Source of the DNA: a phage
Assembly: GCA_022520065.1 (NCBI GenBank)
Contig: GCA_022520065.1_3942.1
DNA: 64,000 nucleotides
Reading direction: 5' to 3' (one strand)
Positions 7,263 through 39,862 of this stretch are shown here, piece after piece; within the stretch, counting starts at the first letter, position 1; each line of letters starts with the position of its first letter. Below the pieces are notes generated by a model. The model worked only from the letters and a program-made list of their open reading frames with translations. It did no database searches and was not told the DNA's origin. The position numbers were made by a program, and so were the translations under genes.

Positions 7263-7278
7263 TAGCTAGGTGAGAAGA

Positions 7279-9245: not shown

Positions 9246-9577
9246 TGGGAACATTAACTATTGATGGTAAGAATAAAATCCTCGCCACGCTAACCCCAAC
9301 GACTATTATTTTACACAATGTAGACCCAACGGCAGACCCTACAGCAAATAAGGTTACTCAGCCAGTGGCTATTTATTTTTCTGAACCGGATAATGGCTTA
9401 ATTGCCTCAGAAGACACAGTTAATATCACTGTTCCAGCTTCTGCAACGGTCTCACACTATAGCTTGTGGGATGCTAACGATAAATGCGTGGCAACTGGTG
9501 CTCTTAGCAAACCTCAATTCTTTGCTGAAGAAGGTATCTATGTTATCTCTTCAGTCTCTGTAGATTTAAACAAATAG
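9245..9577 (+). CDS. hypothetical protein
   Basis: ORF, ATGA overlap with the previous gene. Confidence 0.45.
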   Translation: MGTLTIDGKNKILATLTPTTIILHNVDPTADPTANKVTQPVAIYFSEPDNGLIASEDTVNITVPASATVSHYSLWDANDKCVATGALSKPQFFAEEGIYVISSVSVDLNK

Positions 9578-9588
9578 GGTGAGTAAAA

Positions 9589-10935: not shown

Positions 10936-10946
10936 GGAACACAATA

Positions 10947-11324
10947 ATGGCATATCAAGGTTTTACTAAGTTAGGTAAAAGAGAACCTCTGAATGATATC
11001 ATTCTTTGGGAACAGGTTACCCCAACAGGCCACTCTCGTAAAGAGTACACTCCACAGGCATCTACAGAATATCGTGTAGGTGAAGTTCTGAAGGAAGACG
11101 GTACTAAAGTCGCAGCAGGGGAAGAAGCTCAGGCTGATTCTGTATGTATCGTTAACTTTTATTCAGACCTGCAACTGTCTTACCACGGTCAGTTGAAAGT
11201 TGTTGGTATTTACCGTGACGCAGAACTGAAAGACATGCTTACTCTTGAGTCTGGTGTTAATGCTGAGAACGTCAAGAAAGCTCTGGCTGCTAAAGGTATT
11301 GATTTCGTACCAACTGGCCTGTAA
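10947..11324 (+). CDS. hypothetical head protein (possible decoration protein)
   Basis: 125 aa, host-like high-expression codon usage, adjacent to capsid gene. Confidence 0.45.
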   Translation: MAYQGFTKLGKREPLNDIILWEQVTPTGHSRKEYTPQASTEYRVGEVLKEDGTKVAAGEEAQADSVCIVNFYSDLQLSYHGQLKVVGIYRDAELKDMLTLESGVNAENVKKALAAKGIDFVPTGL

Positions 11325-26155: not shown

Positions 26156-28510
26156 ATGGCAGATTACAAATTGAGTGAGCTAAACTCAATCGACACAATC
26201 CGTTCAGATGACCTTCTTCATGTCAGAGTTAAAAAGAGACCTGAAATGCTGGGTGATGAAGACCGTCGAATGACCTATCAAGATTTCTTAGCATCTTTTA
26301 AGCTTGAAAGATTTGTTCAGATTGCTGGTAGCACTATGACGGGTGACTTAGGAATTGTTAAGCTACTTTACGGTGGCAAGGCTGTATTCGACCCCACAGG
26401 CTCTTCTGAGATTACTGTTGGTGATGTTTTAAAGACTTTTAAAATCAACGCAAACGGCCTTAAACTAACTATTGCAGACGCTTCAAGGTCGGCAACTGTT
26501 TATCATACTTTGAATAAGCCAAGCCCTAATGAACTTGGGATGAGAACTAATGAAGAGAATGACGCAAGGTATGCAAGACTAGCCGTGAATAATACCTTTA
26601 GAGGTACTCAAGCTATCCTCTCTGACAATGAAGCGCTCATTATTAAAAATATCACTCAAGGTGCTCCACTCTATCTTCGTGGTCAAGATGCAGATGGTAC
26701 TAACAGATGGTATCTAGGTAATGATAATAGGGGTACAAATAATCTTGTATTGAAGAATGTAAAGTCTGACGTTTCAATTGCTATTTTAGAGAATTTGGTG
26801 ACAGTCAACAGAACTCTTCAAATTGCTGGCCAAGTTCAGCCTTCAAGTTTTGCTAACTTAGATGCTAGGTATTTTACCCAGACAGCAGCTAATCAGAGAT
26901 TTGCGCAGTTAGCTGGCAATAATACATTTAGTGGTTCTAATATTTTCACTAATTTTGTTATTAAGAAGAATGCTAATGCTATTACTATTCAAAATGTAGA
27001 TACAACTGCGGCTTTGTATATCCAAGCAAGGAAATCAGATGGAGCTAATAAGTGGTACATTGGTAATGATGGTGATGAAAACATTGTAAACATCTATAAC
27101 TATTTAGCAAAAACACAAATCTCATTAGGTAACACCATTACCATGAGCAGAACAGTCCAAATTGGTGGTCAAGTACAACCTTCTGATTGGACTAACATTG
27201 ATTCTAGATATATTCCGGCAGCCACTTTGAGTAATCTCCCTAAACTTAATGTGTCTAATACTTTTACAAATGTGCAAACTATTGTATCTAACAACGAGGG
27301 TTTGGTATTAAGGAACTTGACACAGGGGCAGCCACTATATATCCGTGGTGTTGATACTGAGAATGTTTCTAGATGGTGGTTAGGTGTAGGTGGTCCAAAC
27401 TCTAATGTGGTAACACTTAACAACAACTATTCTGACACTAAAATCTCACTTGGTGGCTCATCAGTAATGACTAATAAGAGCTTAGCTATTACTGGTCAAG
27501 TACAACCTTCTGACTTCTCTAACTTAGATGCTAGATACTATACCCAAGCTGCCGCAAACGCAAGATATATGCTTGCAAGCATCACTGGTTCGGCTTCTGA
27601 AGCAGATGGTGGTGATGGTGTTGCATGGGATGCAAAAACAGGTCTTTATAAGGTTACTAACACCACTGGACAGTCTTCTTCACTTGTATATCACATGTTT
27701 TTAGGGACTAGTTCTACACCATCTGCACAATTAAAGTTTTCGTTTAAAAATGGTGGGATGTGGTATAGAACATCAAGAGATGCCTATGGCTTCGAAGTTA
27801 ATTGGTCTAAAGTTTACACGGAAGCACAAAAACCAACCCCTTCAGAGATTGGTGCATACACTAAAGCTGAAACTGACCAGAAAATTGCAACAGCAATTAG
27901 TGACTCTACAGACCTTAACAAAATCTATCCAGTTGGTATTGTAACGTGGTTTAACAGTAATGTTAACCCTAATACAGCACTCCCTGGTCTAACTTGGACG
28001 TACCTGAATAATGGTGTTGGTAGAACTATCAGAATCGCAGCAGCAAACGGTTCAGATGTTGCTACAACTGGTGGTTCAGATTCTGTGACATTAGCTGTTG
28101 GTAACTTACCATCACACACTCACAGTTTCTCTGCTACCACTTCATCTTTTGATTATGGTACGAAGAACACTAACAGTACTGGTGCACATACCCATTCAGT
28201 TAGTGGTACTGCTGCATCTGCTGGGCAACACGCACACAGAATTTCACAGGGTGACAACGCTAACGTTTCATCAGGTAGAGTCGCATCTTCAAACTCTGCT
28301 CAGACCCATGTTGGTTGGACTGAAAATGATGGTGTTCACACCCACTCAGTTAGTGGTACTGCTGCATCTGCTGGTGGACATGCTCACTCTGTAGGTATTG
28401 GTGCTCATAGCCACACAGTTAGTGGTAACACTGGTGGTACAGGTTCTGGTTCAGCATTTAGTGTTACTAACCAGTTCTACAAGTTAATGGCTTGGGTAAG
28501 AACTGCTTAA
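26156..28510 (+). CDS. long tail fiber protein with internal repeats and His-rich C-terminal tip
   Basis: 784 aa; three internal repeats containing GQVQPS...NLDARY; C-terminal FDYGTKNTNSTGAHTHSVSG module homologous to previous gene. Confidence 0.75.
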   Translation: MADYKLSELNSIDTIRSDDLLHVRVKKRPEMLGDEDRRMTYQDFLASFKLERFVQIAGSTMTGDLGIVKLLYGGKAVFDPTGSSEITVGDVLKTFKINANGLKLTIADASRSATVYHTLNKPSPNELGMRTNEENDARYARLAVNNTFRGTQAILSDNEALIIKNITQGAPLYLRGQDADGTNRWYLGNDNRGTNNLVLKNVKSDVSIAILENLVTVNRTLQIAGQVQPSSFANLDARYFTQTAANQRFAQLAGNNTFSGSNIFTNFVIKKNANAITIQNVDTTAALYIQARKSDGANKWYIGNDGDENIVNIYNYLAKTQISLGNTITMSRTVQIGGQVQPSDWTNIDSRYIPAATLSNLPKLNVSNTFTNVQTIVSNNEGLVLRNLTQGQPLYIRGVDTENVSRWWLGVGGPNSNVVTLNNNYSDTKISLGGSSVMTNKSLAITGQVQPSDFSNLDARYYTQAAANARYMLASITGSASEADGGDGVAWDAKTGLYKVTNTTGQSSSLVYHMFLGTSSTPSAQLKFSFKNGGMWYRTSRDAYGFEVNWSKVYTEAQKPTPSEIGAYTKAETDQKIATAISDSTDLNKIYPVGIVTWFNSNVNPNTALPGLTWTYLNNGVGRTIRIAAANGSDVATTGGSDSVTLAVGNLPSHTHSFSATTSSFDYGTKNTNSTGAHTHSVSGTAASAGQHAHRISQGDNANVSSGRVASSNSAQTHVGWTENDGVHTHSVSGTAASAGGHAHSVGIGAHSHTVSGNTGGTGSGSAFSVTNQFYKLMAWVRTA

Positions 28511-28589: not shown

Positions 28590-28787
28590 ATGCCTACAAT
28601 CCTAGCAATTCTTCTAAAAAATCTAGGTAGCTTCTTCTGGAAACTCATTTTATCCCTTCTAAGTGAATACATGATTGAGAAAGTGTTCTTTAAGCTTGCA
28701 AGATACCTTGCGAGTAAAACAGACACACCTATTGATGATGAGTTCGTAGATAACTTAGAAAAAGCTTTTAAGGGGGAGAATAAATGA
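28590..28787 (+). CDS. hypothetical small protein with hydrophobic N-terminus
   Basis: 65 aa, downstream of promoter 28518-28546. Confidence 0.4.
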   Translation: MPTILAILLKNLGSFFWKLILSLLSEYMIEKVFFKLARYLASKTDTPIDDEFVDNLEKAFKGENK

Positions 28788-29155
28788 AGTGGCTAGAGGA
28801 AGCTTTTAAAAATAATATTGGTGCAATTGTAGTTGGTATTTTTAGTGTTATTGGGATGTATACCACCATGCAAGTTTCGGATGGTAAGCAAGAAGTGTCT
28901 GTCACAACAAAGTTACAGCAGCTAGATAATTACAGCAAAGCTAATTACTCAGCTATTCGTGATTTACAGTCTGACATGAGACTGATTCAGCTAGGGATGG
29001 AGAACCAGAAAGTTCAGTTAGAGAATGTTAAGGGCGAGAACGCAAAACTTACTAAAACCCTTGATAAATTCTCTGACAGCGTGAACAATCTGGCTCAATC
29101 AGTATCAGCCTTGCAAGCTATTACTGAAAAGAACACAAAGAATACTGAAAAATAA
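28784..29155 (+). CDS. hypothetical membrane-anchored coiled-coil protein
   Basis: N-terminal TM helix IGAIVVGIFSVIGMYTT then coiled coil; spanin- or holin-like architecture is speculative. Confidence 0.45.
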   Translation: MKWLEEAFKNNIGAIVVGIFSVIGMYTTMQVSDGKQEVSVTTKLQQLDNYSKANYSAIRDLQSDMRLIQLGMENQKVQLENVKGENAKLTKTLDKFSDSVNNLAQSVSALQAITEKNTKNTEK

Positions 29156-29160
29156 AATTT

Positions 29161-29189
29161 AAGGCTCCTTTTTTACGGGAGCCTTTTTT
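29161..29189 (+). terminator. Terminator at the convergence of plus-strand structural genes and minus-strand thyA
   Basis: Hairpin aaggctcc...ggagcctt followed by tttttt; sits between convergent genes. Confidence 0.6.
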
Positions 29190-29193
29190 GTTT

Positions 29194-30093
29194 TTACTTG
29201 CCTACTGACAGAGGTGCTTCAATCTTTCCTGCATGTTGGTAGTTGTTAATGCCACCAATAAAATCACTTGCAGTAAGATGTTTCAGGTCACTTAAAGTAT
29301 TAAGTGGTAGACCAATCTCAAAAGTTGGTGCATGGAACTCTTCATTGTTCAGTAGTTCATAAACCTGTTTCATGTGGTTCTGATAAATCTGAGTATCTCC
29401 AAAGACACCTATCAAGTACCGTGGAGTGTGTCCAGTCATCTTACAAAGAACTTCCAGAATAAAACCATAAGATGCAATATTAAACGGGAGTCCTAAAAAG
29501 GTGTCTACTGAACGCTGATACCATTGTAAGTCAACTTCACCCTCGTTAGTGATATAAATCTGAAACAGAACATGACAAGGTGCTAAAGCCATTGAGTTTG
29601 CTGCAATATCTGCTGCATTCCAAGCATTAACAAGCATGTAACGGTCTGTGATATCACCCTTCATCTTCGTTACTAAGGTCTCTAGTTGGTCTACAACACA
29701 ACCATTATGACCTTCAAAGTTTCTCCACTGAACCCCATAAATCCTTCCACCTGCATCATCTAACCAATCTTGTTCAGAAGAATAATTAGAGCTTAACCAG
29801 CGTTTAAAATCATCTGACCAGATAGTCCAGCGTTCTCCGTCATTTTCACCCCAAGTACGGTAACGAAGTTCGCCCAACTTATTCTCGCCATTCAGGAACC
29901 ATAAAGCTTCCCCAATAACTTGCCGTGTAAACACCTGTTTAGATGTTAAGAGCGGGAAACCAGTTCGCATATCAAAACGAAACTGAGGTGGAGCAAATGC
30001 AGATATAACATCTCCAGTTCGTGTAGTACGCAGTTCACCAACGGATAAAACATGGTTCAGGATATTTTTGTAACTTGTATCTGCTTGTGACAT
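29194..30093 (-). CDS. thyA: thymidylate synthase
   Basis: ThyA signature motifs including active-site region ALAPCHVLFQIYI and RTGDVISAFAPPQFRFDM. Confidence 0.9.
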   Translation of the reverse strand: MSQADTSYKNILNHVLSVGELRTTRTGDVISAFAPPQFRFDMRTGFPLLTSKQVFTRQVIGEALWFLNGENKLGELRYRTWGENDGERWTIWSDDFKRWLSSNYSSEQDWLDDAGGRIYGVQWRNFEGHNGCVVDQLETLVTKMKGDITDRYMLVNAWNAADIAANSMALAPCHVLFQIYITNEGEVDLQWYQRSVDTFLGLPFNIASYGFILEVLCKMTGHTPRYLIGVFGDTQIYQNHMKQVYELLNNEEFHAPTFEIGLPLNTLSDLKHLTASDFIGGINNYQHAGKIEAPLSVGK

Positions 30094-30094
30094 A

Positions 30095-30640
30095 TCAAAA
30101 GTGTCCTTTCACTTGTGGAACATAAATTTCAAAAGTTGCTTTACCATCCTCTGATGGTTTTGACTGTACCTTTGTAAATACACGGTTATCATACAGCTTC
30201 TCAAAGAAGTTTTCAAAAGGTAAATGCACAGTGGCCTCTTCAGTAACTTTATGGAAAACTGTATGGAAAACTACACCAGCATATGGTAAAGCATTGACAA
30301 GGACACCTGCACCACCAATTACAAAGACATCTTCATCAATAGAGCTATCAAGATAGTTCAAAAATGCTCCAAAGGATTCTTTACTGGCCTTAGCATACAT
30401 TACCTCATCTTTGCCAAAATCTATACCTAAGTATGGTACAGAATTTGTTAAGATGAGGTTTGCACGTTCTGGTAAAGGTTTACTACCCAGAGTCTTGAAA
30501 GTCTCATTCCCCATCACTACTAAGTTGTTTTTAGTAAGTCTCTTAAACTCTTGCATATCCTGTTTATGTCGAGGCCACGGCATACCAGTTGGAGTACCAA
30601 ACTCACCATTTTCACCACTTGCAAAGATTAATTTAATCAT
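30095..30640 (-). CDS. folA: dihydrofolate reductase
   Basis: N-terminal DHFR motif MIKLIFASGENGEFGTPTGMPW; adjacent to thyA. Confidence 0.85.
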   Translation of the reverse strand: MIKLIFASGENGEFGTPTGMPWPRHKQDMQEFKRLTKNNLVVMGNETFKTLGSKPLPERANLILTNSVPYLGIDFGKDEVMYAKASKESFGAFLNYLDSSIDEDVFVIGGAGVLVNALPYAGVVFHTVFHKVTEEATVHLPFENFFEKLYDNRVFTKVQSKPSEDGKATFEIYVPQVKGHF

Positions 30641-30897
30641 TTTGTAAACCCTTTCTTAATGAACCAGTTGATAACATTTTTCACAGCTTTATTGCTATGG
30701 TAGATTAAGTGTGGTGCTGGTTGGTATGAACCATAAGCCCAGAAAGCAATAATTTCACTACACCCTGTACACCTTGTACTCTCTTCAGCAATATGACCGT
30801 TGACTATTTCACTTACCTCACCTTGTAAGTCTGTACACCCACAATGTGGACAACGGATAGGTGCTCCATCAGACTCATAGCAGTGTTCAATTTTCAT
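30637..30897 (-). CDS. hypothetical zinc-ribbon protein
   Basis: CPHCGC ... CTGC cysteine pairs. Confidence 0.45.
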   Translation of the reverse strand: MKIEHCYESDGAPIRCPHCGCTDLQGEVSEIVNGHIAEESTRCTGCSEIIAFWAYGSYQPAPHLIYHSNKAVKNVINWFIKKGFTK

Positions 30898-31413
30898 CTA
30901 TTTAACCTCAAAAACTGGCTCAAGAACCAATATAAAGTCTACACAGTCATCTTCTTCATCAAGAATACCATCAAAGTTCTTAGGAACGAAGTCGAAGAGA
31001 CTCATAGAGTAGCGGTTAGAAGTAATCCTGATAGTTCCTCCGATATTCTCTACAGTTAATATTGTACGGCTTTCTGTTACCTCACTAAGAAGATTACTCA
31101 CAAAGTCATCTAAGAAGTGCTTCATCAGTGACTTAAAACCTTTAGGGTAATCTGTACCAGAGTATGTTTCAATCTGAGGTACAAGCTTAACATTTATACT
31201 AGTCTTTGTTAAGAATGTGTTAGAGAACATACTATCAGGTAACTTGCAAACAGTCTTTCCAGTACCTTCATGCTCAATCTCAACAAAACCAGCTTCGTCG
31301 CCACATGTGACTATTTTAAAAGATGCTTCATTCTCATACTGTGAAGCCATAAACTTTTTAAGCATCTCTTTAAGGAAATCTGCATGAGCATCTTGTAAGT
31401 AGATATCAATCAT
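30898..31413 (-). CDS. hypothetical protein
   Basis: 171-aa ORF in minus-strand operon. Confidence 0.45.
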   Translation of the reverse strand: MIDIYLQDAHADFLKEMLKKFMASQYENEASFKIVTCGDEAGFVEIEHEGTGKTVCKLPDSMFSNTFLTKTSINVKLVPQIETYSGTDYPKGFKSLMKHFLDDFVSNLLSEVTESRTILTVENIGGTIRITSNRYSMSLFDFVPKNFDGILDEEDDCVDFILVLEPVFEVK

Positions 31414-31426
31414 AGTTAATCACCTA

Positions 31427-31786
31427 TTATGGGAACAAACACTTAATGTCGTCGTTTTTGAAAACGAAGCTTGTGTAGTTGTGACCGTCAACATCCAGCC
31501 AAACAGCCTGAACATCTACACCATCAAGATTGTGGTAAAGTTCTTTGATGAAGTGGTCTTTCACAATCTGGCTGCTAGTTGTCTCCAGCTTAATGTTTGA
31601 GATTGCTGAACCTACAGCCATATAACCCATGACACGTTTCTTCTCAGTGTGCTTAATCTTACCATCTTTGTAAGCCATAATGAGATTGGAAAGAATCTTC
31701 ACACCATAATACTTTTCAAGGTGAGTAGGTACACCATAAAAGCCTAATGCAAAGTTTTCAGAGTGGATAATGTTTTCACGTTTCAT
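31427..31786 (-). CDS. hypothetical protein
   Basis: 119-aa ORF. Confidence 0.45.
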   Translation of the reverse strand: MKRENIIHSENFALGFYGVPTHLEKYYGVKILSNLIMAYKDGKIKHTEKKRVMGYMAVGSAISNIKLETTSSQIVKDHFIKELYHNLDGVDVQAVWLDVDGHNYTSFVFKNDDIKCLFP

Positions 31787-31787
31787 A

Positions 31788-32087
31788 TTAATCTGCCAAC
31801 CTTAAATTAAAATTTACACCAAATTTTTCGCATACTTCCAACATATACTCAAGCGAGACATTACCAGTAAGGTGGATTATGTTGGACACACGAGCCTGAG
31901 AGATACCACAAATTTTAGCAACTTGCTCTTGAGAAAGACCTCTGGATTTAATCTCTCTCTTAAAACGATGTGCAACGAAGTCTCTCATTTCGTCTACATC
32001 CATTGGACAAATATAACTCTCCATTTCAGCCTCTCTGTCAGCCTCCCAATCATCTTGTGGAGCATAAGGGTCAAAAACCTCATTCAT
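31788..32087 (-). CDS. helix-turn-helix DNA-binding protein (XRE/Cro-like)
   Basis: HTH-like segment LSQEQVAKICGISQARVSNIIH; start moved to ATG 32087 to reduce overlap. Confidence 0.45.
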   Translation of the reverse strand: MNEVFDPYAPQDDWEADREAEMESYICPMDVDEMRDFVAHRFKREIKSRGLSQEQVAKICGISQARVSNIIHLTGNVSLEYMLEVCEKFGVNFNLRLAD

Positions 32088-32292
32088 CTTTCTTCTTCCG
32101 TTTGCGTGAAGTGTCAATCAATGAATCTATGTTTGTAGCCCTAACCTTTTCACGTTCATCGTTAAGATAATCATCAAGAGCCTTTTCAATCTGTGAATCA
32201 TCTTGACAGATAACTGTAAAGACTGTAAAGCCGTCTGTATCGTCAATTATCTTACCATAACCGCCTCTGGGATGTAACTTTTTAAGAGCCAT
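32080..32292 (-). CDS. hypothetical protein
   Basis: 70-aa ORF, Lys-rich C-terminus. Confidence 0.35.
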   Translation of the reverse strand: MALKKLHPRGGYGKIIDDTDGFTVFTVICQDDSQIEKALDDYLNDEREKVRATNIDSLIDTSRKRKKKDE

Positions 32293-32293
32293 A

Positions 32294-32677
32294 TCAAATA
32301 CCTGTGCAGCTTCTGTTTTCTAAGAAATATTCAACACCGTACATAGCTTTTTGCATCAAATCTTCTTTAAACTGGATACGGTGGTTGAGCATCGCCTGTA
32401 CATCAATATCGTCATGGTGTTTCTCTTTAATGTTTGCAGATTGCAGGAAATACTCTGCAAGAACACGATACTGGTAGTCAGTCACCTTATCAGTCATCTC
32501 TGTCAAAGACTCTTCAGAGATGGGTTTAAGTAACTCACCATTAGCTAGAGCAACACCTTTTACAATCTGGCAAGTGTCTACTGGAACACCTGATAAATCC
32601 ACATTTGGAAGTTCTGTTGCATTAACTGGTAAATTCATTGCCATAACCATTGCAGCAGCTAATAAAACCTTTTTCAT
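32294..32677 (-). CDS. secreted/periplasmic protein with signal peptide
   Basis: N-terminal MKKVLLAAAMVMAMNLPVNA signal-peptide-like sequence. Confidence 0.5.
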   Translation of the reverse strand: MKKVLLAAAMVMAMNLPVNATELPNVDLSGVPVDTCQIVKGVALANGELLKPISEESLTEMTDKVTDYQYRVLAEYFLQSANIKEKHHDDIDVQAMLNHRIQFKEDLMQKAMYGVEYFLENRSCTGI

Positions 32678-32721
32678 AATGACCTCAAAGTTATATTAAA
32701 TTTTGTATTACATTGAGTATA

Positions 32722-32768
32722 AAAATAAGCTATAACACCTGACTTGTCAACAGATTTTATAGCTTATT
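32722..32768. promoter_or_regulatory. 13-bp perfect inverted repeat flanking a TTGACA-like hexamer (operator- or origin-like)
   Basis: aaataagctataa (32722-32734) and ttatagcttattt (32756-32768) separated by 21 nt. Confidence 0.4.
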
Positions 32769-32796
32769 TGGCAGATTTTTTATAAGGCTACTGCCA

Positions 32797-32865
32797 TCCT
32801 TCCATACCCTACCTTACCACACCCAACCATACCTAACCAAACTACACCATACAATACCTTATTAA
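32797..32865. repeat. Degenerate pentamer repeat array (CCNWA)n, G-rich on the minus strand
   Basis: About 12 tandem units ccata/cccta/cctta/ccaca/cccaa ...; second less regular C/A-rich block near 32923-32999. Confidence 0.5.
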
Positions 32866-33246
32866 AAGACCCTCTTAAAGACCTTTTAAAAAGGTAAGTC
32901 TCATTTTAATGTAGCTGAGACTAACTACCCATACATTACCGCACCATATTATACCCTACCCCACCATACTTCACTGCACCGAGCCACGCATTACATCACT
33001 TAAAAACCCTTTTCAAAGACTCTTAAGTGATGCTGGTGAGTACCCGTTGGTTTATGATGCTCAGTATACTCACCAAATTTTCTATGTCAACAACTTTTAT
33101 AAAAAAGTTCTGATAGCTATATGCGTCACGAAACAAAAGATTGTAAACAAGACACCCATTGCAAAAGATGTGTCCAAAAGCTTACTTGCAACGTATGACA
33201 ATACAAAGACAACCAGTATAAATAGAATGACTGTACTGAACATAGT

Positions 33247-34350
33247 TTACTCATAATCCCTAATAACTAGCCCTACAGGAAACTGTAAAGAACCTTTACG
33301 AGTCATCTTCTGGAACTGAACAGTTAAAGGTTTCCCGATAAACTCTTCAGGATGTTCAGCAAGATACTGTTTCTTCTCGTGTGTAGTTTTCCATGAAACA
33401 TCTACAAAGACGTTAGGAAGAGTCTCTACAACGAACTTACCATGACCACGCTTATCGGTCTTTACACCAGTCACTTTAAACTCTTCAGTGTGCATCTTCT
33501 TGTGCTTAATCAAGAAGTATGAACGGTGACAACACTCATAGAAGGAGTCTTCAGAGATTGAACGGTACATTGCACCTTCAAACTTAGCTTCAACCCACTT
33601 ATCATGAGCTTCATCAAACTCTTCCCAAGAATTTACACGACGAGATTTAACAGGAACAACTTTACAGCCGTCTCTAAAGTCATTCAATGGTGAAGTCTCA
33701 ATAATATCTCTACGCTCAGGCCACGTTTTAGTACTGTCACAGATATCATACCAGTAGAACTTAAGTGAGTGTCTGTCAGGATTGTCTTCATTTTTAATCA
33801 TAGAGACAATATCTTCTAAGTCCCACCCATGAGCATAAATCTCACCATCAAATTCATCAACATCTTTATGGAGCCTCAACATTGCCATAATGTCAGGTAT
33901 TAGCTCAGTAGGAATTTTATAAATAGTGTTCTCACGAGAATATGCTGTAAATACACTGCCAATACTCAAGTGTCTTGAAATTCTACAACGGACACCATCA
34001 AGTTTTGGTTGAGCATCAGCAGGGAACTTCAGATACTTTGCATGGCTAACCTTTGCAGCATCATGAGCAAGCTGTACACCTACCTTCTCAGTGTTCTGTG
34101 CAGACTCTTTTGTGTAAGCATAACCTTTGCGGTCTACTTGCTTTTTATACTTAGCAGCAACTTCAAAGAGAGCTTGCTGTTCAGCATTACGCTCATTCTT
34201 TTTACCGATGTTCTTAGGCTCTGCTGTGTACTCTTCAAACATCATCTTGCCATTTTCTTTACCGTAGGTTGTAATAACTTTGTCACCTACAGCAACGCAT
34301 GACCAGACGTTGAAGGAACCGTCTTTATTTTGTTTGTACAGAATTGTCAT
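33247..34350 (-). CDS. ATP-dependent DNA ligase
   Basis: Adenylation motif KLDGVRC (KxDG); start set to ATG 34350 with AGAGG RBS (track start 34386 also possible). Confidence 0.85.
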   Translation of the reverse strand: MTILYKQNKDGSFNVWSCVAVGDKVITTYGKENGKMMFEEYTAEPKNIGKKNERNAEQQALFEVAAKYKKQVDRKGYAYTKESAQNTEKVGVQLAHDAAKVSHAKYLKFPADAQPKLDGVRCRISRHLSIGSVFTAYSRENTIYKIPTELIPDIMAMLRLHKDVDEFDGEIYAHGWDLEDIVSMIKNEDNPDRHSLKFYWYDICDSTKTWPERRDIIETSPLNDFRDGCKVVPVKSRRVNSWEEFDEAHDKWVEAKFEGAMYRSISEDSFYECCHRSYFLIKHKKMHTEEFKVTGVKTDKRGHGKFVVETLPNVFVDVSWKTTHEKKQYLAEHPEEFIGKPLTVQFQKMTRKGSLQFPVGLVIRDYE

Positions 34351-34555
34351 TTTTAACCTCTGAGTGATACCAAGTGTCACAAGCATTACATGCGTAAAGC
34401 TCTAAGTCGTTTTTATCTGGTTTATGGAAACAGTTTGACCCACAACGACACCGGAATAACTTACCATCAACACGAAGAATGAATGTTTCAAGCTCACCCT
34501 CTTCTGTAAGGACGGCGTTATTATATTTGTTATCTTTATCCATTTGTACTCTCAC
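34325..34555 (-). CDS. hypothetical zinc-binding protein
   Basis: CRCGSNC ... CNAC cysteine clusters; overlaps ligase start. Confidence 0.4.
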   Translation of the reverse strand: MRVQMDKDNKYNNAVLTEEGELETFILRVDGKLFRCRCGSNCFHKPDKNDLELYACNACDTWYHSEVKNDNSVQTK

Positions 34556-34699
34556 CTGTGTCAGATTTCATATAAGACCTGTCGCTAAACCTTTTAATGA
34601 AATGTACAACGCATTTCGGTGTATCTTTTGCATCTTTGATGTGCGACCTTTCGAAACTGCGCACTGTGAAGGTTGCATCTGTCATTGTTTGCTTAGATT

Positions 34700-34906
34700 T
34701 CATTTTCTCTTACCACCAATTTCTACGTCAATAACTTGAACATCACCAGCAACATCAAACTTATGAATGATGCTTTCCACAGTGTAAGTCCAACCATCAA
34801 TGCGAACCAACTCACCTTCTCGTGGGACGATTGGGTTACGTTGAGCTACCGTTGTAGTAGAGTGAACAACATCATAACAATAGATATAGTTTACTAGGAC
34901 TTCCAT
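34700..34906 (-). CDS. hypothetical protein
   Basis: Start set to internal ATG 34906 with GAGGG RBS to avoid overlap with lipoprotein gene. Confidence 0.4.
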   Translation of the reverse strand: MEVLVNYIYCYDVVHSTTTVAQRNPIVPREGELVRIDGWTYTVESIIHKFDVAGDVQVIDVEIGGKRK

Positions 34907-34916
34907 CGTGAAACCC

Positions 34917-35186
34917 TCACTCAATAACCGTAGTGTGTGATTGACCATTTTTGCCATAGCTATAAGATGTTGTTGTTTGGGAGTTTGGACATCTGACAAC
35001 AACAATATCTCTGCTTATAGCATCACCATGTAACTTGTATACTCTGCAATCTTGCATCTCTGGTGGGAGACTGTAAGAAGCATTTTTATCTTCATAAGAA
35101 GGGTTGCAGCCAGATAGAAAAACAACACCAAGCGCAATTACTGCTTTCCACATAATACTTCCCCAGAGACTGTACATTTTCTTCAT
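34917..35186 (-). CDS. putative lipoprotein
   Basis: Signal peptide ending in lipobox LSGC (VVFLSGCNPS). Confidence 0.5.
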   Translation of the reverse strand: MKKMYSLWGSIMWKAVIALGVVFLSGCNPSYEDKNASYSLPPEMQDCRVYKLHGDAISRDIVVVRCPNSQTTTSYSYGKNGQSHTTVIE

Positions 35187-35416
35187 AGCAACTCCAGAAT
35201 ATCAATACGTTCACCTTTGAGTACTCCAGTACGGTCTTTTGCAATCTTACCGTCAACGATAAGGATGTGTGTAGACCTTAAAGCGTCGTTGTTAAAGGTT
35301 TTTACGAACTTGCTAGGCATGACTACAATGCACATCTCCTGAATCAGCTCTGGAGTGTAGCAGTTATCATGAAGTTGCTGAATAACGTCTGCAAGTGTCA
35401 TTTTTGATGTCTCCAA
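35183..35416 (-). CDS. hypothetical protein
   Basis: 77-aa ORF. Confidence 0.4.
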   Translation of the reverse strand: METSKMTLADVIQQLHDNCYTPELIQEMCIVVMPSKFVKTFNNDALRSTHILIVDGKIAKDRTGVLKGERIDILELL

Positions 35417-35613
35417 TATTCAATGTCTATAAGTTCTTGTGCAATGCTTTTAAGGTTACTTTTAAGGAAAACTTTCTCACCACCAGACAGGGAGGTATTA
35501 TCAATGAGTCTGTTCATTCTCTCAAACAACTTCTGTTTACGATTCTTGATGGTTTCCTTTGAAGCACCTTTCATCATTGCTGCATGGGTTCTTCCACGGT
35601 GGCTCATAATCAC
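35398..35613 (-). CDS. hypothetical protein
   Basis: 71-aa basic ORF. Confidence 0.4.
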   Translation of the reverse strand: MIMSHRGRTHAAMMKGASKETIKNRKQKLFERMNRLIDNTSLSGGEKVFLKSNLKSIAQELIDIEYWRHQK

Positions 35614-35668
35614 TCCTATATAAGATACAGTATAAGGTACTCTTCCATGAGCACCTTGTCAATACTAA

Positions 35669-38368
35669 TTAGTGAACCTCAAGCCAGCTTTTACCAACCT
35701 TACCAGTACCTGTAACAAGTGTTTCTTTCTTAAGACCTAAGTTCTTAGAAGCTTGCCCGTAATACCAATCAGTAACTGCTTTTACTTCTGCCGTCATACT
35801 CTCTGGACATTCCCAGCTTGTCTCATCGTGATATGCGCACAATAAGCGAGCACCTATAGCTGGTTTACGCCCATTTAGTTTCATCAACCCTTCGTCAATC
35901 ATGCGACGACAAGCAAGGTTAATTGCCTCATTTTGAATCTGGGCCTCTGAACCCATCAAAAGGTAGTTCAACAGTTTGTGTGGAGATTTACACCACAACC
36001 AAGCTCCAGCAACCTTTACAAAACCCCCTTTAGAAATTGCAGCAGTCTTACCAAACACCTCTTCAAGTACCTTTTTAGTTGCTTTGTAGTCAGCTTCCAA
36101 GTCATCTAACAGCTTCTTAATTTTAGGCAAACGTATAAAGTAAGTTTGTTTAGTCAGTGCACCTTCCTGAGTAGTTGCAGCTTTAATCGTCTTAGCAAAC
36201 TTCTCATCCCCTGCACCGAACAGCAGTGCATAGATACCATTCTTAGCTTTCTTACGACCCTTACTAATCTCATGGAGAAGATTCTCATCCTGAGTAGCTC
36301 GACAAGTCAAGATATCCTGCTCATCATTCAAGCTAAAGTAGATACTGTTCAGTGTATGTGCATCAGTCCCTGAATAGACAACGTACAGGTCATTCTCAGA
36401 GTCATAACGAAGGTACTTATCAATCTCTGGGTTTAGGTACTCATCAAAATGTTTGCAGTAATAGCGTCCATCTTCTTGACGAATAAACTCAATCTCTTCT
36501 TTACCTTGCGTTACCGCTTTGGTGAACTCTTTATCACCCATAAAGTTACAAAGAAGAACTAGCTGGGCTGAGTTCATATCTACAGAGACAACGTTAGTAC
36601 CTTCCTCACAAATCCACACTGCCCTCATTGGTTCCCCATAGACAGCAGCACCAGACGGTACGTTTACAATACCATATTGTGTCATACGTCCAGTTGAAGT
36701 ACCAAACACCATTGCGCCAGCACTAAGGCGACCATCAGGACGAATCTGGTTCAACCAACCTTTTTCATCATCCTTTGAGTTCTCAATAGTTCTGCGTCTG
36801 TGCATCAAAGTATAGTACTTAGCAATCTTCTGTCCAAGCTCACCTTCAATCGTATCATAAGATGATTCCGTAAGTTTTGGTGAAGTACGGATTAAGCAAG
36901 GTTCAAGCAAATCTGTGTACTTCTTCACAGACCAGTTATGCTCGATGTACTGGACGCCTTCATGCTCGACATAACTCAAACCACACCGTTCAACCATCTC
37001 CTGCCACTTAGGATGCTTTGTAATCATCTTTTTGTTGTCTTTGAAACGACAAACTTTGACAGGGCGACCATCTGAGTCTTTCTTGTAGTTCCAGTCATCT
37101 GGAATCCAACCAACTGATTTCAAGTAGTCTTTAACAACTGCTACCTGAGTCATACGAGAAACTTCAAACTCAATTGGTGTATATGGTGCATCAATCAATC
37201 CTGTGTAGCGACTTGAATCCAGTTCAAAGTGGTTAACAACATGGCTGTTATAGTACTTCACAGTCTTAACTGTCTTCACTGGCTTCCAGTCTTTGCATTT
37301 CTTACCAATCTTTGCATTCAACTCGTTGCAAATTGCACGAGCATCCTTCATTGCTACAAAACCTTCCTTGTACTCTTCACCAGTTACAGAGTTGGTTGGT
37401 GTATAGCAATTTCTCTTTTCAATGTTAAAAATCTTTGTAGTTGGCTTACCAAATGGCTTGATTTCATATGTCTGCATCTCACCGTTACGTACCTGCTGAC
37501 GGTACTTCGTCTTAGGGTACTTGGTAATTCTCTTCAGTCCATCTGCATGACCGAACGCTTCAACATACTCATTCCAAGCTTTTGCAAACTCTTCTCCAGT
37601 AACTTTACCTTTAGTCTTAATAGTTGGAGGAAGATGTGGTTCAACTTCTGAAGCAAGCTCATTAGTCAACTTGTCAAGTTCCTTCACATGGAACTCCATA
37701 AGCTCTTTATCAGCTTTCCAACCATTGATAGCTTGTTGACTCATCCAGAAAGATGTTTCTTTAGCTCGCATATAGGTTTCATAAGTGTCTATACCACACT
37801 TCTTTAACTTCAGGTATTCATTATCCAGTGCACATTTAGTTTTGGCGTTAATACGGATATCTTCTACAACACGAGTGAAGATTTCTGCATTCCATACACC
37901 CCAATGTTCAATCTCTGGTTTACGTACACCAACACGAGCACCCCATGCTGCCAAGCCATGAGCACCTTTATAGCCTTTTGGAGTTGGTCTATCCATCCAC
38001 TGAACACGAGATTGGATAAGAGAATCCTGAAAGAAATTACTCCACGGCTTACACTTTGGATTATCAAAGTTCCATAAATCAGGTGCAATGTGATTGAAAA
38101 CCCACCAGTCATAACCCAGACCATTATGGATGCAAAGTCGTTTCGCCTTTAATGCAAACTCAATACCTTCACGCAAACCACCCTTAATGTACTTGGTGTA
38201 CTTGTGACCGAGGATAGGCTCATCTGTAAAAACCCATACAGGTGGCTCTTCATCATCAGATTTATAGTCTGCGAAAGCCATTACGTGCACTTTAGTGAAC
38301 TCAAGGAGTAAACCATCAGTTTCTGTATCACCAACTAAATGTAAGTTTTTAAAATCTACGTTTTCCAT
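35669..38368 (-). CDS. DNA polymerase, family A, with 3'-5' exonuclease domain
   Basis: Exo motif VGDTETDGL, polymerase motifs (VSVDMNSAQLVLL, KNGIYALLFGAG, CAYHDE); start set to ATG 38368 with AGAGGGA RBS. Confidence 0.85.
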   Translation of the reverse strand: MENVDFKNLHLVGDTETDGLLLEFTKVHVMAFADYKSDDEEPPVWVFTDEPILGHKYTKYIKGGLREGIEFALKAKRLCIHNGLGYDWWVFNHIAPDLWNFDNPKCKPWSNFFQDSLIQSRVQWMDRPTPKGYKGAHGLAAWGARVGVRKPEIEHWGVWNAEIFTRVVEDIRINAKTKCALDNEYLKLKKCGIDTYETYMRAKETSFWMSQQAINGWKADKELMEFHVKELDKLTNELASEVEPHLPPTIKTKGKVTGEEFAKAWNEYVEAFGHADGLKRITKYPKTKYRQQVRNGEMQTYEIKPFGKPTTKIFNIEKRNCYTPTNSVTGEEYKEGFVAMKDARAICNELNAKIGKKCKDWKPVKTVKTVKYYNSHVVNHFELDSSRYTGLIDAPYTPIEFEVSRMTQVAVVKDYLKSVGWIPDDWNYKKDSDGRPVKVCRFKDNKKMITKHPKWQEMVERCGLSYVEHEGVQYIEHNWSVKKYTDLLEPCLIRTSPKLTESSYDTIEGELGQKIAKYYTLMHRRRTIENSKDDEKGWLNQIRPDGRLSAGAMVFGTSTGRMTQYGIVNVPSGAAVYGEPMRAVWICEEGTNVVSVDMNSAQLVLLCNFMGDKEFTKAVTQGKEEIEFIRQEDGRYYCKHFDEYLNPEIDKYLRYDSENDLYVVYSGTDAHTLNSIYFSLNDEQDILTCRATQDENLLHEISKGRKKAKNGIYALLFGAGDEKFAKTIKAATTQEGALTKQTYFIRLPKIKKLLDDLEADYKATKKVLEEVFGKTAAISKGGFVKVAGAWLWCKSPHKLLNYLLMGSEAQIQNEAINLACRRMIDEGLMKLNGRKPAIGARLLCAYHDETSWECPESMTAEVKAVTDWYYGQASKNLGLKKETLVTGTGKVGKSWLEVH

Positions 38369-38625
38369 TTTTACTCCCTCTAAAATCATTAACCTCATAC
38401 ATTACTGCAAAAAATTATAAAAAGCAAGTTGACAATGTACTTGACAAGGTGTTAATCTTTGCGAAGTGGGTTTTTACTTAAAAGGTTACTTAACAGTTTA
38501 ACTATACAGATACTTTAAAACTCTTAAAAGATTATTTAATAGCTTTTAAAAAGCTTTAAAGTATAACGTATAGAATACGTTAAGATAAAAGATTAAAACT
38601 TAATAGTTACTTAAAAGAGGCTTAC

Positions 38626-39049: not shown

Positions 39050-39862
39050 ATGAATATCAATGTAGAACAAATGCTTGAAGAAAAAGGTATTGACGAAGCA
39101 TTCTTAATCAATGCCGTAGAAAGCATGGCTATGATTCTTCGTGGAAACAACTATACAGAACAGTTTATGCCTGCAAGCTATAACCTGCCTAAAGACAAGT
39201 CTGATAACGGTGCTTTTGCAGAACAGGTTAATATGATGCTGTGTGACAAAACACTTGCTTTAGCATCTATTGTTGTAGGTGTTGATGCTCTTGCAGAGTT
39301 CATTTTTTATGAGATGCAGAAAAATGACTATATTGCCATGACCTCTGAAGAAAAAGACTCGCTACTGCTCTTAGGTTATGATGAGCTAGTTAACCTATTA
39401 ATTTCGTCAACGAGTGCTGTTATGGCTGCTCTTGAGAAGCGCATGGAAGAGAAGCTGTCACGATATGAAAAACTTGATTGGGGTGTAGAGGAATTAAACC
39501 CACGAATCAAAGAGATTATCCAGCAAACCAAAGATTCTTTGGAAGAAGCTGTAAAAAATGATTCTGTAGCTGACATAGAGCCACTTCAGGTGAAAGTTGC
39601 ATTGATGATTCCAGCCATCTCCACGATGATGAATATCGTTGCACTAATCCAGCTTTCACAGATGATGGGCACAAGCATTGAGTTCATTGAGAGTATGACT
39701 GGTGGTGTGAGTATGCAAGCAATCAATGATGTTCTGGTGAGCATTGGTGCTTCAATCATTGAAGAGAAGCTGCGCATTAACTTTGGTGATGATTTTGTGA
39801 AGCAAATCTCAGCTATGGCTGAAAAAGAGTATTCACAGACTAATACTGACCAACTGCACTAA
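39050..39862 (+). CDS. hypothetical early protein
   Basis: 270-aa ORF followed by terminator. Confidence 0.5.
   Translation: MNINVEQMLEEKGIDEAFLINAVESMAMILRGNNYTEQFMPASYNLPKDKSDNGAFAEQVNMMLCDKTLALASIVVGVDALAEFIFYEMQKNDYIAMTSEEKDSLLLLGYDELVNLLISSTSAVMAALEKRMEEKLSRYEKLDWGVEELNPRIKEIIQQTKDSLEEAVKNDSVADIEPLQVKVALMIPAISTMMNIVALIQLSQMMGTSIEFIESMTGGVSMQAINDVLVSIGASIIEEKLRINFGDDFVKQISAMAEKEYSQTNTDQLH

What the first reader, a model, noticed from the sequence alone, without database searches (positions are those of the whole stretch)
32294..35186. Secreted protein and lipoprotein genes in the DNA-metabolism operon
One ORF has a classical signal peptide (MKKVLLAAAMVMAMNLPVNA), another a lipobox (LSGC) followed by a Cys-containing mature domain. 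Envelope-targeted proteins encoded among replication genes of a virulent phage are candidates for superinfection exclusion or receptor masking (by analogy with T5 Llp, which blocks its own receptor). This is inference from architecture only.
Basis: inference. Interest (0 to 1): 0.45.

Follow-up and report, generated by a model that had tools for sequence, protein, structure and literature searches.

The report
Two exported accessory proteins, Felix O1-like phage

Summary
The window comes from a Felixounavirus, a virulent Felix O1-like myovirus.

**Secreted protein.** Gene 32294-32677(-) is the orthologue of Felix O1 ORF87. It encodes a 127-aa precursor with a classical cleavable signal peptide and an invariant pair of cysteines. 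It occurs only in Ounavirinae.

**Lipoprotein.** Gene 34917-35186(-), with a conserved start at 35153, is the orthologue of Felix O1 ORF91.
- It encodes a prolipoprotein with an invariant lipobox (L-x-G-C) and Asn at +2.
- The mature domain is 62 aa, predicted as a beta-sheet, with a conserved cysteine pair.
- It belongs to DUF4884 / phrog_902. This family has at least 659 clusters, spread over unrelated lytic phages of Gram-negative bacteria and almost absent from bacterial genomes.

Both genes are under purifying selection (dN/dS about 0.08), and neither product is in the published Felix O1 virion proteome. Published Felix O1 RT-PCR data show ORF87 transcribed together with the replication genes. 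ORF91 is not listed in that table.

**Interpretation.** It is only partly supported.
- Export is well supported.
- Kinship with T5 Llp fails on sequence, profile, fold and gene position.
- This genus uses LPS, not a protein receptor.
- The lipoprotein family occurs in very different phage groups, which argues against receptor-specific masking.

A broader envelope-protecting or superinfection-exclusion role is the best guess, at about 0.4, and it is pure inference. Interest is modest.

The parts
32294..32677 (-). Gene for a 127-aa secreted (periplasmic) protein, orthologue of Felix O1 ORF87 (phrog_4332). The mature part is about 107 aa, has net charge -8, and carries an invariant Cys36/Cys124 pair.
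   Evidence: ORF. phrog_4332 E = 9.5e-67. Present in 259 Ounavirinae records and nowhere else. Conserved signal peptide and Cys pair at 33% identity. dN/dS 0.078. Equals ORF87. RT-PCR transcript, maximal at 25 min (PMC3185647).
32618..32677 (-). Signal-peptide coding part of the secreted protein (residues 1-20, MKKVLLAAAMVMAMNLPVNA; predicted SPase I cut after VNA).
   Evidence: Read directly from the sequence. The n/h/c regions and Ala at -1 are invariant in divergent orthologues.
34917..35186 (-). Gene for a small prolipoprotein (89 aa from ATG 35186; 78 aa from the conserved ATG 35153), orthologue of Felix O1 ORF91. Member of DUF4884 (PF16225) / phrog_902. The mature lipoprotein is 63 aa counting the lipidated Cys.
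   Evidence: ORF. phrog_902 E = 7e-17. Homologues carry precomputed PF16225 = DUF4884. 659 cluster representatives at E <= 1e-3. dN/dS 0.055-0.075. AF2 model pLDDT 78.6, five beta-strands. Equals ORF91.
35106..35117 (-). Lipobox codons L-S-G-C (residues 24-27 of the 89-aa form). Cys27 would be the lipidated N-terminus of the mature protein. The next residue is Asn.
   Evidence: Invariant L, G and C in 14 homologues. Lipobox in 141 of 156 family members. It is the only strict lipobox ORF in the window.
32678..33096 (-). 419-nt non-coding spacer immediately upstream of the secreted-protein gene. It holds the two best sigma-70-like promoter matches of the block (33063-33090, 11/12; 32722-32750, 10/12), a duplicated 17-nt TTGACA box, and degenerate GT-rich repeats.
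   Evidence: Promoter scan. Repeats. Sequence. These are consensus matches only, and the total number of promoter-like sites is not above the shuffle expectation.
33097..33243 (-). Gene for a 48-aa protein with two hydrophobic segments (probable membrane hairpin), phrog_22006. A third envelope-directed product of the same block; any link to the other two is unproven.
   Evidence: ORF and sequence. phrog_22006 E = 5.5e-33. Annotated in JohannRWettstein as bas63_0038. 42% identical orthologue in Moogle.
29194..38398 (-). Context: the leftward transcription block (Felix O1 'transcripton 96-80'), with DNA polymerase, small ORFs, the lipoprotein, ligase, the secreted protein, a Cro/CI-type regulator, DHFR and thymidylate synthase. 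It is closed by a bidirectional terminator at 29161-29185.
   Evidence: ORFs and Pfam. Terminator. Synteny with JohannRWettstein, LMP34, Moogle and Felix O1. PMC3185647.

Best explanation
Two non-structural accessory genes of a virulent Felix O1-like phage encode proteins that leave the cytoplasm during the replication phase of infection.

1. The ORF87 orthologue is exported by Sec and cut by signal peptidase I after VNA. It is released into the periplasm as an acidic protein of about 107 aa, probably mainly helical, whose two invariant cysteines most likely form a disulfide.

2. The ORF91 orthologue is a DUF4884 prolipoprotein. It would be lipidated on Cys by Lgt, cleaved by LspA, and acylated by Lnt. 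Because residue +2 is Asn, the Lol system would carry it to the inner leaflet of the outer membrane. Its 62-aa disulfide-braced beta-sheet domain would then face the periplasm.

Most likely function (inferred): both act on the envelope of the already infected cell to protect the infection. That means superinfection exclusion or envelope protection at a generic post-adsorption step, such as wall penetration or DNA transit through the periplasm, or resistance to lysis from without. It would not be masking of a specific receptor as T5 Llp does. The lipoprotein would bind a conserved envelope component, not a variable receptor.

Shown:
- the genes are real and conserved
- the export signals are present and conserved
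- family membership, phage distribution and genomic context are established
- neither product is in the published Felix O1 virion proteome, and the ORF87 orthologue is transcribed alongside the replication genes.

Inferred:
- processing, localisation and the disulfides
- the entire function.
For: Export signals:
- They are conserved where the rest of the sequence is not.
- This is the only strict lipobox ORF in 64 kb.
- Selection is purifying.

Expression and location:
- Felix O1 ORF87 is transcribed, with its maximum at 25 min together with ORFs 88, 89, 90, 93 and 96.
- Neither ORF87 nor ORF91 is in the virion proteome (PMC3185647).

The DUF4884 family:
- 659 50%-identity clusters at E <= 1e-3.
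- 586 phage records of unrelated groups (BFVD hits; Henu8).
- Always a solitary gene. No neighbour family is shared among 28 diverse loci.
- In the three annotated phages inspected it sits among small genes of unknown function, in the Vibrio phage next to replication genes, and not next to tail-fibre or lysis genes.
- The strict motif VVRCPNSxT[ST] is found at 35 IMG/VR loci but only once in 185,579 species genomes. The family therefore belongs to lytic phages, not prophages, and must act during lytic growth.
- That single bacterial copy lies in an island next to a candidate defence system, PDC-M68/ABC-3C.
- The gene is detectable in only 197 of about 260 Ounavirinae records, and frameshifted copies exist. 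That fits a dispensable competitive function.

The secreted protein:
- It is the most diverged of 86 orthologue pairs between this phage and Moogle (33% against a median of 74%; tail fibre 40%). This pattern is typical of conflict-related accessory genes.

Established precedent (my own knowledge): T4 Imm/Sp and T5 Llp are envelope proteins of virulent phages that are made early and exclude secondary infection.
Against: - No experiment bears on function.
- Neither protein shows sequence, profile or fold similarity to any known exclusion protein.
- Expression peaks in mid-infection, not immediately, in the one published data set, and ORF91 was not in that table.
- The secreted protein is at least 95% identical in 210 of 259 Ounavirinae records while tail fibres mostly differ by 20-40%, so it is not tuned to adsorption specificity.
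- The breadth of DUF4884 fits equally well with a housekeeping role in infection, such as envelope homeostasis, lysis timing or counter-defence.
- The +2 residue varies across the family (Asp in 18 of 141), so outer-membrane location is not universal.
Confidence: 0.4

Rival explanations
1. T5 Llp / Cor-type receptor masking. The lipoprotein, or the secreted protein, binds the phage's own receptor in the outer membrane, so that further virions, or progeny released at lysis, cannot adsorb.
For: Superficially the layout is that of Llp: a small lipoprotein of about 60 aa with a cysteine pair, encoded by a virulent phage. T5 Llp is the textbook precedent.
Against: - There is no similarity to Llp once signal peptides are removed. 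The apparent 86% hhalign probability is driven by the signal peptide.
- Llp is absent from the fold-search hits.
- The gene is not next to the receptor-binding protein gene.
- Felixounavirus receptors are LPS, which a periplasm-facing lipoprotein cannot cover (PMC8594841).
- The same family is present in phage groups as different as T5-like Vibrio phages, Vequintavirinae and ICP1-like phages.
- The lipoprotein is 79% conserved between phages whose tail fibres are 40% identical.
Confidence: 0.07
2. Lysis control. Either the lipoprotein is an outer-membrane spanin component, or the secreted protein is an RI-like periplasmic antiholin that binds the periplasmic domain of the holin.
For: - The lipoprotein has the signal expected of an o-spanin.
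- The protein annotated as holin in relatives (window 28784-29155) has one N-terminal membrane segment and a C-terminal domain of about 95 aa. That is the topology of the T4 T holin, which is regulated by periplasmic RI.
- Lysis genes are scattered in this phage group (PMC4319497), and the phage carries rIIA.
Against: - No i-spanin-like neighbour (N-terminal membrane segment plus coiled coil) is consistently adjacent in 24 diverse loci or here.
- The Moogle authors report separate spanin genes, and none is annotated in the first 50 kb of the Moogle record, where the lipoprotein orthologue gp40 is called hypothetical.
- The mature domain is a folded beta-sheet with an intramolecular Cys pair, not a short proline-rich peptide.
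- The secreted protein shows no similarity to T4 RI (probability 0.2%).
- The 'holin' is 92% identical between this phage and Moogle, while the secreted protein is 33% identical, so the two do not co-vary.
- It has a standard A-x-A cleavage site, not an uncleaved SAR-type anchor.
Confidence: 0.12
3. Host take-over or counter-defence in the envelope. The proteins inhibit or re-route a conserved host envelope machine or an envelope-based defence for the benefit of the current infection. Examples are lipoprotein, LPS or outer-membrane-protein biogenesis, Tol-Pal, peptidoglycan turnover, vesiculation and stress sensing. Exclusion of other phages would play no part.
For: - The core motifs (LPxELxDCKxY, VVRCPNSxTTT, GK) are conserved across phages of Vibrio, Enterobacterales, Acinetobacter and Aeromonas. 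That implies a target conserved among Gram-negative bacteria.
- The family is restricted to lytic phages.
- Expression coincides with replication genes.
Against: - No target is indicated by any search.
- The lipoprotein is missing or frameshifted in part of the genus, so it is not needed for basic growth.
- The only bacterial copy lies beside defence genes, not housekeeping genes.
Confidence: 0.2
4. Not a real feature: chance ORFs, or hydrophobic N-termini that do not function as export signals.
For: No direct protein-level evidence exists. SignalP and LipoP could not be run.
Against: Purifying selection. Hundreds of homologues with conserved signals. PHROG families. RT-PCR transcript for ORF87.
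Confidence: 0.02

Closest known systems
DUF4884 (Pfam PF16225) / PHROG phrog_902: small phage lipoproteins of unknown function
   Same: The lipoprotein is a typical member. It has a full-length profile match, the lipobox, the conserved motifs and Cys pair, a size of 75-100 aa, and occurs as a solitary gene.
   Different: Nothing distinguishes it from the rest of the family. In this phage it has an optional 11-aa N-terminal extension. No member of the family has a known function.
Phage T5 Llp (lytic conversion lipoprotein; PDB 8a60 chain B), and by extension Cor of T1/phi80
   Same: A small lipoprotein of a virulent phage with a cysteine pair in a mature domain of about 60 aa. It could work in the same general way, with a periplasm-facing lipoprotein changing what happens at the outer membrane.
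   Different: - No sequence, profile or fold relationship.
- Not linked to the receptor-binding protein gene.
- The cognate phage uses LPS, not FhuA.
- The family is spread over very different phage groups.
Phage T4 Spackle (Sp) and Imm: periplasmic and inner-membrane superinfection-exclusion proteins
   Same: The secreted protein resembles Sp in outline. It is a small periplasmic protein of a virulent myovirus with a cleavable signal peptide and a cysteine pair, and it is made before late genes. The adjacent 48-aa two-segment membrane protein recalls Imm.
   Different: There is no sequence or profile similarity to Sp, only the signal peptide (probability 11%; PDB search). The fold was not tested. 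A target (tail lysozyme) was not examined. It is restricted to Ounavirinae.
Rz1-type outer-membrane spanin subunits
   Same: Type II signal peptide, with Asn at +2 predicting outer-membrane sorting.
   Different: No i-spanin partner gene. Replication-gene context. A folded beta domain with an intramolecular Cys pair. The Moogle authors report spanin genes that are not in this part of the genome.
Phage T4 RI antiholin
   Same: A small periplasmic protein with a cysteine pair. The candidate holin has a sizeable non-cytoplasmic domain.
   Different: No similarity. A cleavable signal, not a SAR anchor. No co-variation with the holin.

Membership tests
DUF4884 / phrog_902 (lipoprotein gene) | Significant full-length match to the family profile | tested here: met
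   phrog_902 E = 7e-17 over residues 11-87. All homologues carry precomputed PF16225, which is named DUF4884. The local Pfam copy does not return the model, so the Pfam score itself was not reproduced.
DUF4884 / phrog_902 (lipoprotein gene) | N-terminal type II signal peptide with lipobox | tested here: met
   LSGC at residues 24-27. The lipobox is invariant in close homologues and present in 141 of 156 members.
DUF4884 / phrog_902 (lipoprotein gene) | Conserved core: LPxE[LM]xDCKxY ... VVRCPNSxT[ST]T ... GK, with two Cys besides the lipid Cys | tested here: met
   The window protein has LPPEMQDCRVY, VVRCPNSQTTT and GK. C36 is invariant and C55 is at least 90% conserved across 129 sequences; both are invariant in the 113-sequence alignment.
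T5 Llp family | Sequence or profile similarity of the mature domain | tested here: not met
   hhalign of the mature-domain profile against mature Llp: probability 0.6%, score 12.3, reached by 18 of 200 shuffles. The PDB HMM search hits 8a60_B only in the signal peptide, E = 5.9.
T5 Llp family | Same fold as Llp | tested here: not met
T5 Llp family | Gene placed beside the receptor-binding protein gene (in T5, llp lies next to oad/pb5; my own knowledge) | tested here: not met
   The tail-fibre gene is at 26156-28510, 6.4 kb away across more than ten genes and on the other strand. The gene is not near tail genes in CB7, Vibrio phage 70E34-1b or 4MG.
T5 Llp family | Binds and inactivates the phage's protein receptor (FhuA) | not testable with these tools
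   Indirect only: Felixounavirus depends on LPS core, not on protein receptors (PMC8594841).
Rz1-type o-spanin | Outer-membrane lipoprotein signal | tested here: met
   Lipobox with Asn at +2. Sorting is inferred from the E. coli +2 rule.
Rz1-type o-spanin | Cognate i-spanin gene embedded, overlapping or adjacent | tested here: not met
   Flanking ORFs here have no membrane segment. No consistent N-terminal-TMD neighbour was found in 24 loci. The Moogle authors report spanin genes and none is annotated in this region.
T4 Spackle (secreted protein) | Sequence or profile similarity | tested here: not met
   hhalign of A6 against T4 Sp aligns only the 19-aa signal peptide, probability 11%. There are no PDB hits to Spackle entries at E <= 10.
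T4 Spackle (secreted protein) | Helical fold that binds the tail lysozyme | not tested
The only evidence is a weak helical periodicity signal (hydrophobic moment peak at 95 degrees).
T4 RI antiholin (secreted protein) | Sequence similarity, and co-evolution with the holin's periplasmic domain | tested here: not met
   hhalign probability 0.2%. The holin candidate is 92% identical between this phage and Moogle, against 33% for the secreted protein.
phrog_4332 (secreted protein) | Full-length profile match | tested here: met
   E = 9.5e-67, residues 1-127 against profile positions 1-126 of 126.

The most novel reading that the evidence does not exclude
DUF4884 would be a previously unrecognised, receptor-independent class of envelope effector specific to lytic phages. 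It would be a periplasm-tethered, disulfide-braced mini-lipoprotein that binds one conserved component of the Gram-negative envelope. That binding would block a generic post-adsorption step of secondary infection, or disarm an envelope-based defence. Unrelated lytic phage lineages would have acquired it repeatedly. The fast-diverging Ounavirinae-specific periplasmic protein (the ORF87 orthologue) would be a second, lineage-specific exclusion factor.
Probability: 0.25. Interest if true: 0.65.

Novelty: new member of a known kind. Interest (0 to 1): 0.33.

Why it matters
If the inferred role is right, DUF4884 would be a widespread envelope effector shared by many therapeutic-type lytic phages: Felixounavirus, Vequintavirinae, jumbo phages, and T5-like and ICP1-like Vibrio phages. 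That would bear on phage-cocktail design, because one phage could exclude another. It could also point to a conserved, druggable envelope target.

At present it is simply a well-defined, cheap-to-test pair of candidates. The main value of this check is threefold:
- it removes the misleading Llp analogy
- it shows that the lipoprotein belongs to a large family restricted to lytic phages
- it shows that the secreted protein is the fastest-diverging gene of the genome segment.

Tried and rejected
1. Pfam, NCBIfam and PADLOC scans of both proteins and their neighbours gave nothing significant. PF16225 is not in the local Pfam copy.
2. PDB sequence searches with profiles of both families gave no significant hit.
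3. The first AF2 run, with 9 close sequences, gave pLDDT 56 and was discarded. The second, with 113 sequences, gave 78.6.
4. Fold searches against PDB gave only generic beta-sheet matches. BFVD returned only other uncharacterised phage lipoproteins. afdb50 was unavailable.
5. Guilt by association found no neighbour family shared among 28 diverse loci and no consistent membrane-protein partner.
6. I asked whether the secreted protein co-varies with the tail fibre. This was rejected: it is at least 95% identical in 210 of 259 records while fibres differ by 20-40%.
7. Rfam on the region gave nothing.
8. The motif TGTTGACA, tested as a phage-specific promoter signature, is not enriched.
9. Literature searches for Felixounavirus with lipoprotein, spanin or superinfection exclusion, for DUF4884 and PF16225, and for phage lipoproteins found no functional study of either gene.
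10. I suspected that adrianh and OPT-SAL01 lack the lipoprotein gene. That was wrong: the gene is present but unannotated, because annotators called the overlapping longer ORF. The estimate that about a quarter of records lack it therefore rests on blast counts only.
A narrower alignment worked.


Full report
**What the window is.** The region is 90-95% identical at the DNA level to about 260 phage genomes of the genus Felixounavirus, which are Felix O1-like virulent myoviruses of E. coli, Salmonella and Shigella. Gene order matches JohannRWettstein/Bas63, LMP34, Moogle and Felix O1 itself. The finding lies in a 9.2-kb block transcribed leftward:
- DNA polymerase (35669-38398)
- five small ORFs that include the lipoprotein gene
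- ATP-dependent DNA ligase
- a 48-aa membrane protein
- a 419-nt spacer
- the secreted-protein gene
- a 70-aa ORF
- a Cro/CI-type regulator
- three further ORFs
- DHFR
- thymidylate synthase (29194-30093)
- a bidirectional terminator.

This block is the 'transcripton 96-80' of the Felix O1 genome paper (PMC3185647).

**The observation.** Both ORFs are at the stated coordinates.

*Secreted protein, 32294-32677(-).*
- The product starts MKKVLLAAAMVMAMNLPVNA|TE: a basic n-region, a hydrophobic core, and V-x-A before the predicted cut.
- Orthologues from the sister genera Mooglevirus and Suspvirus are only 30-34% identical. They still keep MKK, the hydrophobic core, small residues at -3/-1, and both cysteines, C36 and C124.
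- Conservation of the signal when two thirds of the residues have changed is strong evidence for export. It also suggests a periplasmic disulfide.

*Lipoprotein, 34917-35186(-).*
- The product carries VVFLSGC|NPSY. The L, G and C of the lipobox are invariant in close homologues.
- 141 of 156 family members examined have a lipobox.
- Two starts are possible. ATG 35186 overlaps the upstream stop and has a GGAG 5 nt upstream. ATG 35153 is the start conserved in relatives. Both give a valid type II signal.

*Chance and coding constraint.*
- A strict scan of every ORF and alternative start in the 64-kb window found no other lipobox candidate (relaxed scan).
- dN/dS against Bas63 is about 0.08 for both genes.
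- The ORF downstream of the lipoprotein gene starts at 34906, not 35005, so the two do not overlap.

**The lipoprotein belongs to a large family confined to lytic phages.**

*Family membership.*
- It matches phrog_902 (E = 7e-17).
- All homologues carry the precomputed Pfam accession PF16225, named DUF4884. The local Pfam copy lacks that model.
- An exhaustive HMMER search found 659 cluster representatives at E <= 1e-3.
- The family signature is: lipid Cys, about 10 residues, Y-x-LP-x-E-[LM]-x-DCK-x-Y, then VVRCPNS-x-T-[ST]-T, then GK. Most members have two conserved cysteines besides the lipidated one.

*Distribution.*
- tblastn finds it in 586 phage records. These include 114-kb Vibrio phages (T5-like in gene content), Vequintavirinae (4MG, CB7, Klebsiella phages), jumbo coliphages (phAPEC6, G17) and Acinetobacter phages.
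- Structure search adds T4-like Aeromonas phages, a Yersinia phage and the ICP1-like Vibrio phage JSF10.
- The literature adds a 50-kb coliphage, Henu8.

*Genomic setting.*
- In the three annotated phages inspected (CB7, Vibrio phage 70E34-1b, 4MG) it is a solitary gene among small genes of unknown function, in the Vibrio phage next to replication genes. It is not next to tail-fibre or lysis genes.
- No neighbouring protein family is shared among 28 diverse loci.
- No consistent membrane-protein partner is adjacent.

*Phage versus bacterial genomes.*
- The strict motif VVRCPNSxT[ST] occurs at 35 IMG/VR loci but only once in one genome each of 185,579 bacterial and archaeal species. The family is thus essentially absent from prophages.
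- The single bacterial copy, in Hylemonella gracilis, lies in an island behind a truncated comM. Its neighbours are another lipoprotein, a secreted protein and a PDC-M68/ABC-3C candidate defence system.

*Structure.*
- With 113 sequences AlphaFold gives a five-stranded antiparallel sheet (pLDDT 78.6).

**The secreted protein is lineage-specific and diverges fast.**
- It is phrog_4332 and is found only in Ounavirinae.
- It is at least 95% identical in 210 of 259 Ounavirinae records, mostly Felixounavirus. It drops to about 33% in Mooglevirus and Suspvirus.
- Among 86 reciprocal best hits between this phage and Moogle it is the most diverged. The median is 74%, the tail fibre 39.9%, the ligase 87% and the lipoprotein 79.5%.
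- It does not follow tail-fibre variation within the genus. It also does not follow the 'holin', which is 92% conserved.
- Its gene is the first one after the 419-nt spacer. That spacer holds the two best sigma-70-like sites of the block, but promoter-like sites as a whole are not above shuffle expectation, so this is only suggestive.
- Profile searches against Pfam, NCBIfam, PADLOC and PDB find nothing.
- Hydrophobic periodicity peaks at 95 degrees, a weak hint of a helical protein.

**Expression.** By RT-PCR in Felix O1-infected S. Typhi, ORF87, the secreted protein (mapping confirmed), is maximal at 25 min. ORFs 88, 89, 90, 93 and 96 (ligase to polymerase) peak at the same time. ORF91, the lipoprotein, is not listed. 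Neither protein is among the virion proteins (PMC3185647).

**Comparison with known systems.**

*T5 Llp.* I recalled the Llp sequence from memory and confirmed it at 100% identity by tblastn.
- It aligns with the DUF4884 profile only through the signal peptide.
- With signal peptides removed, the hhalign probability is 0.6% and 18 of 200 shuffles score as well.
- Llp is absent from the fold-search hits.
- Felixounaviruses depend on LPS, not on a protein receptor (PMC8594841).
- The family is shared by very different phage groups.
- Llp-type receptor masking is therefore unlikely, and membership of the Llp family is rejected.

*T4 Spackle and T4 RI.* Both sequences were recalled from memory; the Spackle sequence was confirmed at 100% by tblastn, and the RI sequence was not checked against a database.
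- Neither shows similarity to the secreted protein beyond the signal peptide.

*o-spanin.*
- This role is rejected because no i-spanin partner is adjacent.
- The domain is a folded one with a Cys pair.
- The Moogle authors report separate spanin genes, and none is annotated in the first 50 kb of the Moogle record, where the orthologue gp40 is 'hypothetical'.

**Best explanation and its limits.**
- *Shown:* there are two real, conserved, non-structural genes whose products carry conserved Sec/SPase I and lipoprotein signals, and the ORF87 orthologue is transcribed alongside the replication genes.
- *Inferred from established rules:* periplasmic release of the 107-aa protein; lipidation of the lipoprotein and Lol-dependent sorting to the outer membrane (Asn at +2); disulfide formation in both.
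- *Inferred function (confidence about 0.4):* accessory envelope effectors that protect the infected cell. This would be exclusion or envelope protection at a generic, post-adsorption step, not receptor masking.
- *In favour:* the family is restricted to lytic phages and is independent of phage type. The gene is dispensable, being detectable in 197 of about 260 Ounavirinae records with frameshifted copies. Two apparent absences turned out to be annotation gaps. The bacterial homologue has a defence-island neighbour. The secreted protein diverges very fast.
- *Against:* there is no functional evidence, no homology to any exclusion protein, and the fold is generic. A role in envelope take-over or counter-defence (0.2) or in lysis control (0.12) fits much of the same evidence.

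**Verdict.** The lipoprotein is an ordinary member of an already catalogued family of unknown function, and the secreted protein is an uncharacterised genus-level accessory protein. Interest is modest at 0.33. The candidates are cheap to test, and a positive result for DUF4884 would apply to many lytic phages.

Noticed in passing
window 32678-33096: A 419-nt non-coding spacer between the 48-aa membrane-protein gene and the secreted-protein gene. It has a duplicated 17-nt TTGACA-containing box (32745-32761 and 33085-33101), the two best sigma-70-like sites of the block, and degenerate GT-rich 15-20-nt repeats (32806-32970). In LMP34, adrianh and Moogle the same spacer carries two extra ORFs (about 440 and 590 nt), so it is an insertion hot spot. 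Some relatives annotate a 'repeat_region' here.
   Followed up: partly
window 33097-33243 (-): A 48-aa ORF with two hydrophobic segments (probable membrane hairpin), phrog_22006, conserved in Bas63 and in Moogle (42%). Together with the secreted protein it loosely recalls the T4 Imm/Sp pair.
   Followed up: partly
window 28784-29155 (+): The protein annotated 'holin' in many relatives (Felix O1 ORF79) has a single N-terminal membrane segment followed by a coiled-coil-like domain of about 95 aa. That is the topology of the T4 T holin, but equally of an i-spanin. It is 92% identical to the Moogle protein. Its true role seems unsettled.
   Followed up: partly
L057 (Hylemonella gracilis NZ_AEGR01000062.1), 3300-11300: The only DUF4884 gene found in 185,579 species genomes. 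It lies in an island behind a truncated comM/Mg-chelatase gene. The island also holds an XRE regulator, a 257-aa lipoprotein, a 488-aa secreted protein and a PDC-M68/ABC-3C candidate anti-phage system.
   Followed up: partly
L007 (JGI 3300047323, Ga0495683_0000001, 2.23-Mb contig), gene at 8001-8255: A DUF4884 lipoprotein gene sits on a 2.23-Mb metagenomic contig. Most of its neighbours have no Pfam hit; those that do include ankyrin-repeat proteins, a Cys-tRNA synthetase and a dUTPase. The gene content looks more like a giant virus or an odd symbiont than an ordinary bacterium. A 160-kb Logan contig (L008) carries the same genes.
   Followed up: no
L058 4725-4952 (adrianh) and L059 2940-3179 (OPT-SAL01): In several deposited Felixounavirus genomes the lipoprotein gene is present but unannotated. 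Annotators called a longer overlapping ORF in another frame instead, the equivalent of window 34700-35005. Frameshifted 64-aa versions also exist (P0012, P0013).
   Followed up: yes
window 39050-39862 (+), 30898-31413 (-), 35183-35416 (-): Apart from the tail fibre and the secreted protein, a few other genes are unusually diverged between this phage and Moogle, at about 40% against a median of 74%. They include the orthologue of Felix O1 ORF98 ('minor tail protein'), which lies in the early region next to the polymerase.
   Followed up: no
window 34325-34555 (-) and 30637-30897 (-): Two small ORFs with four-cysteine zinc-ribbon-like motifs (CRCG...CNAC and CPHCGC...CTGC) lie in the same block. 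Their function is unknown.
   Followed up: no
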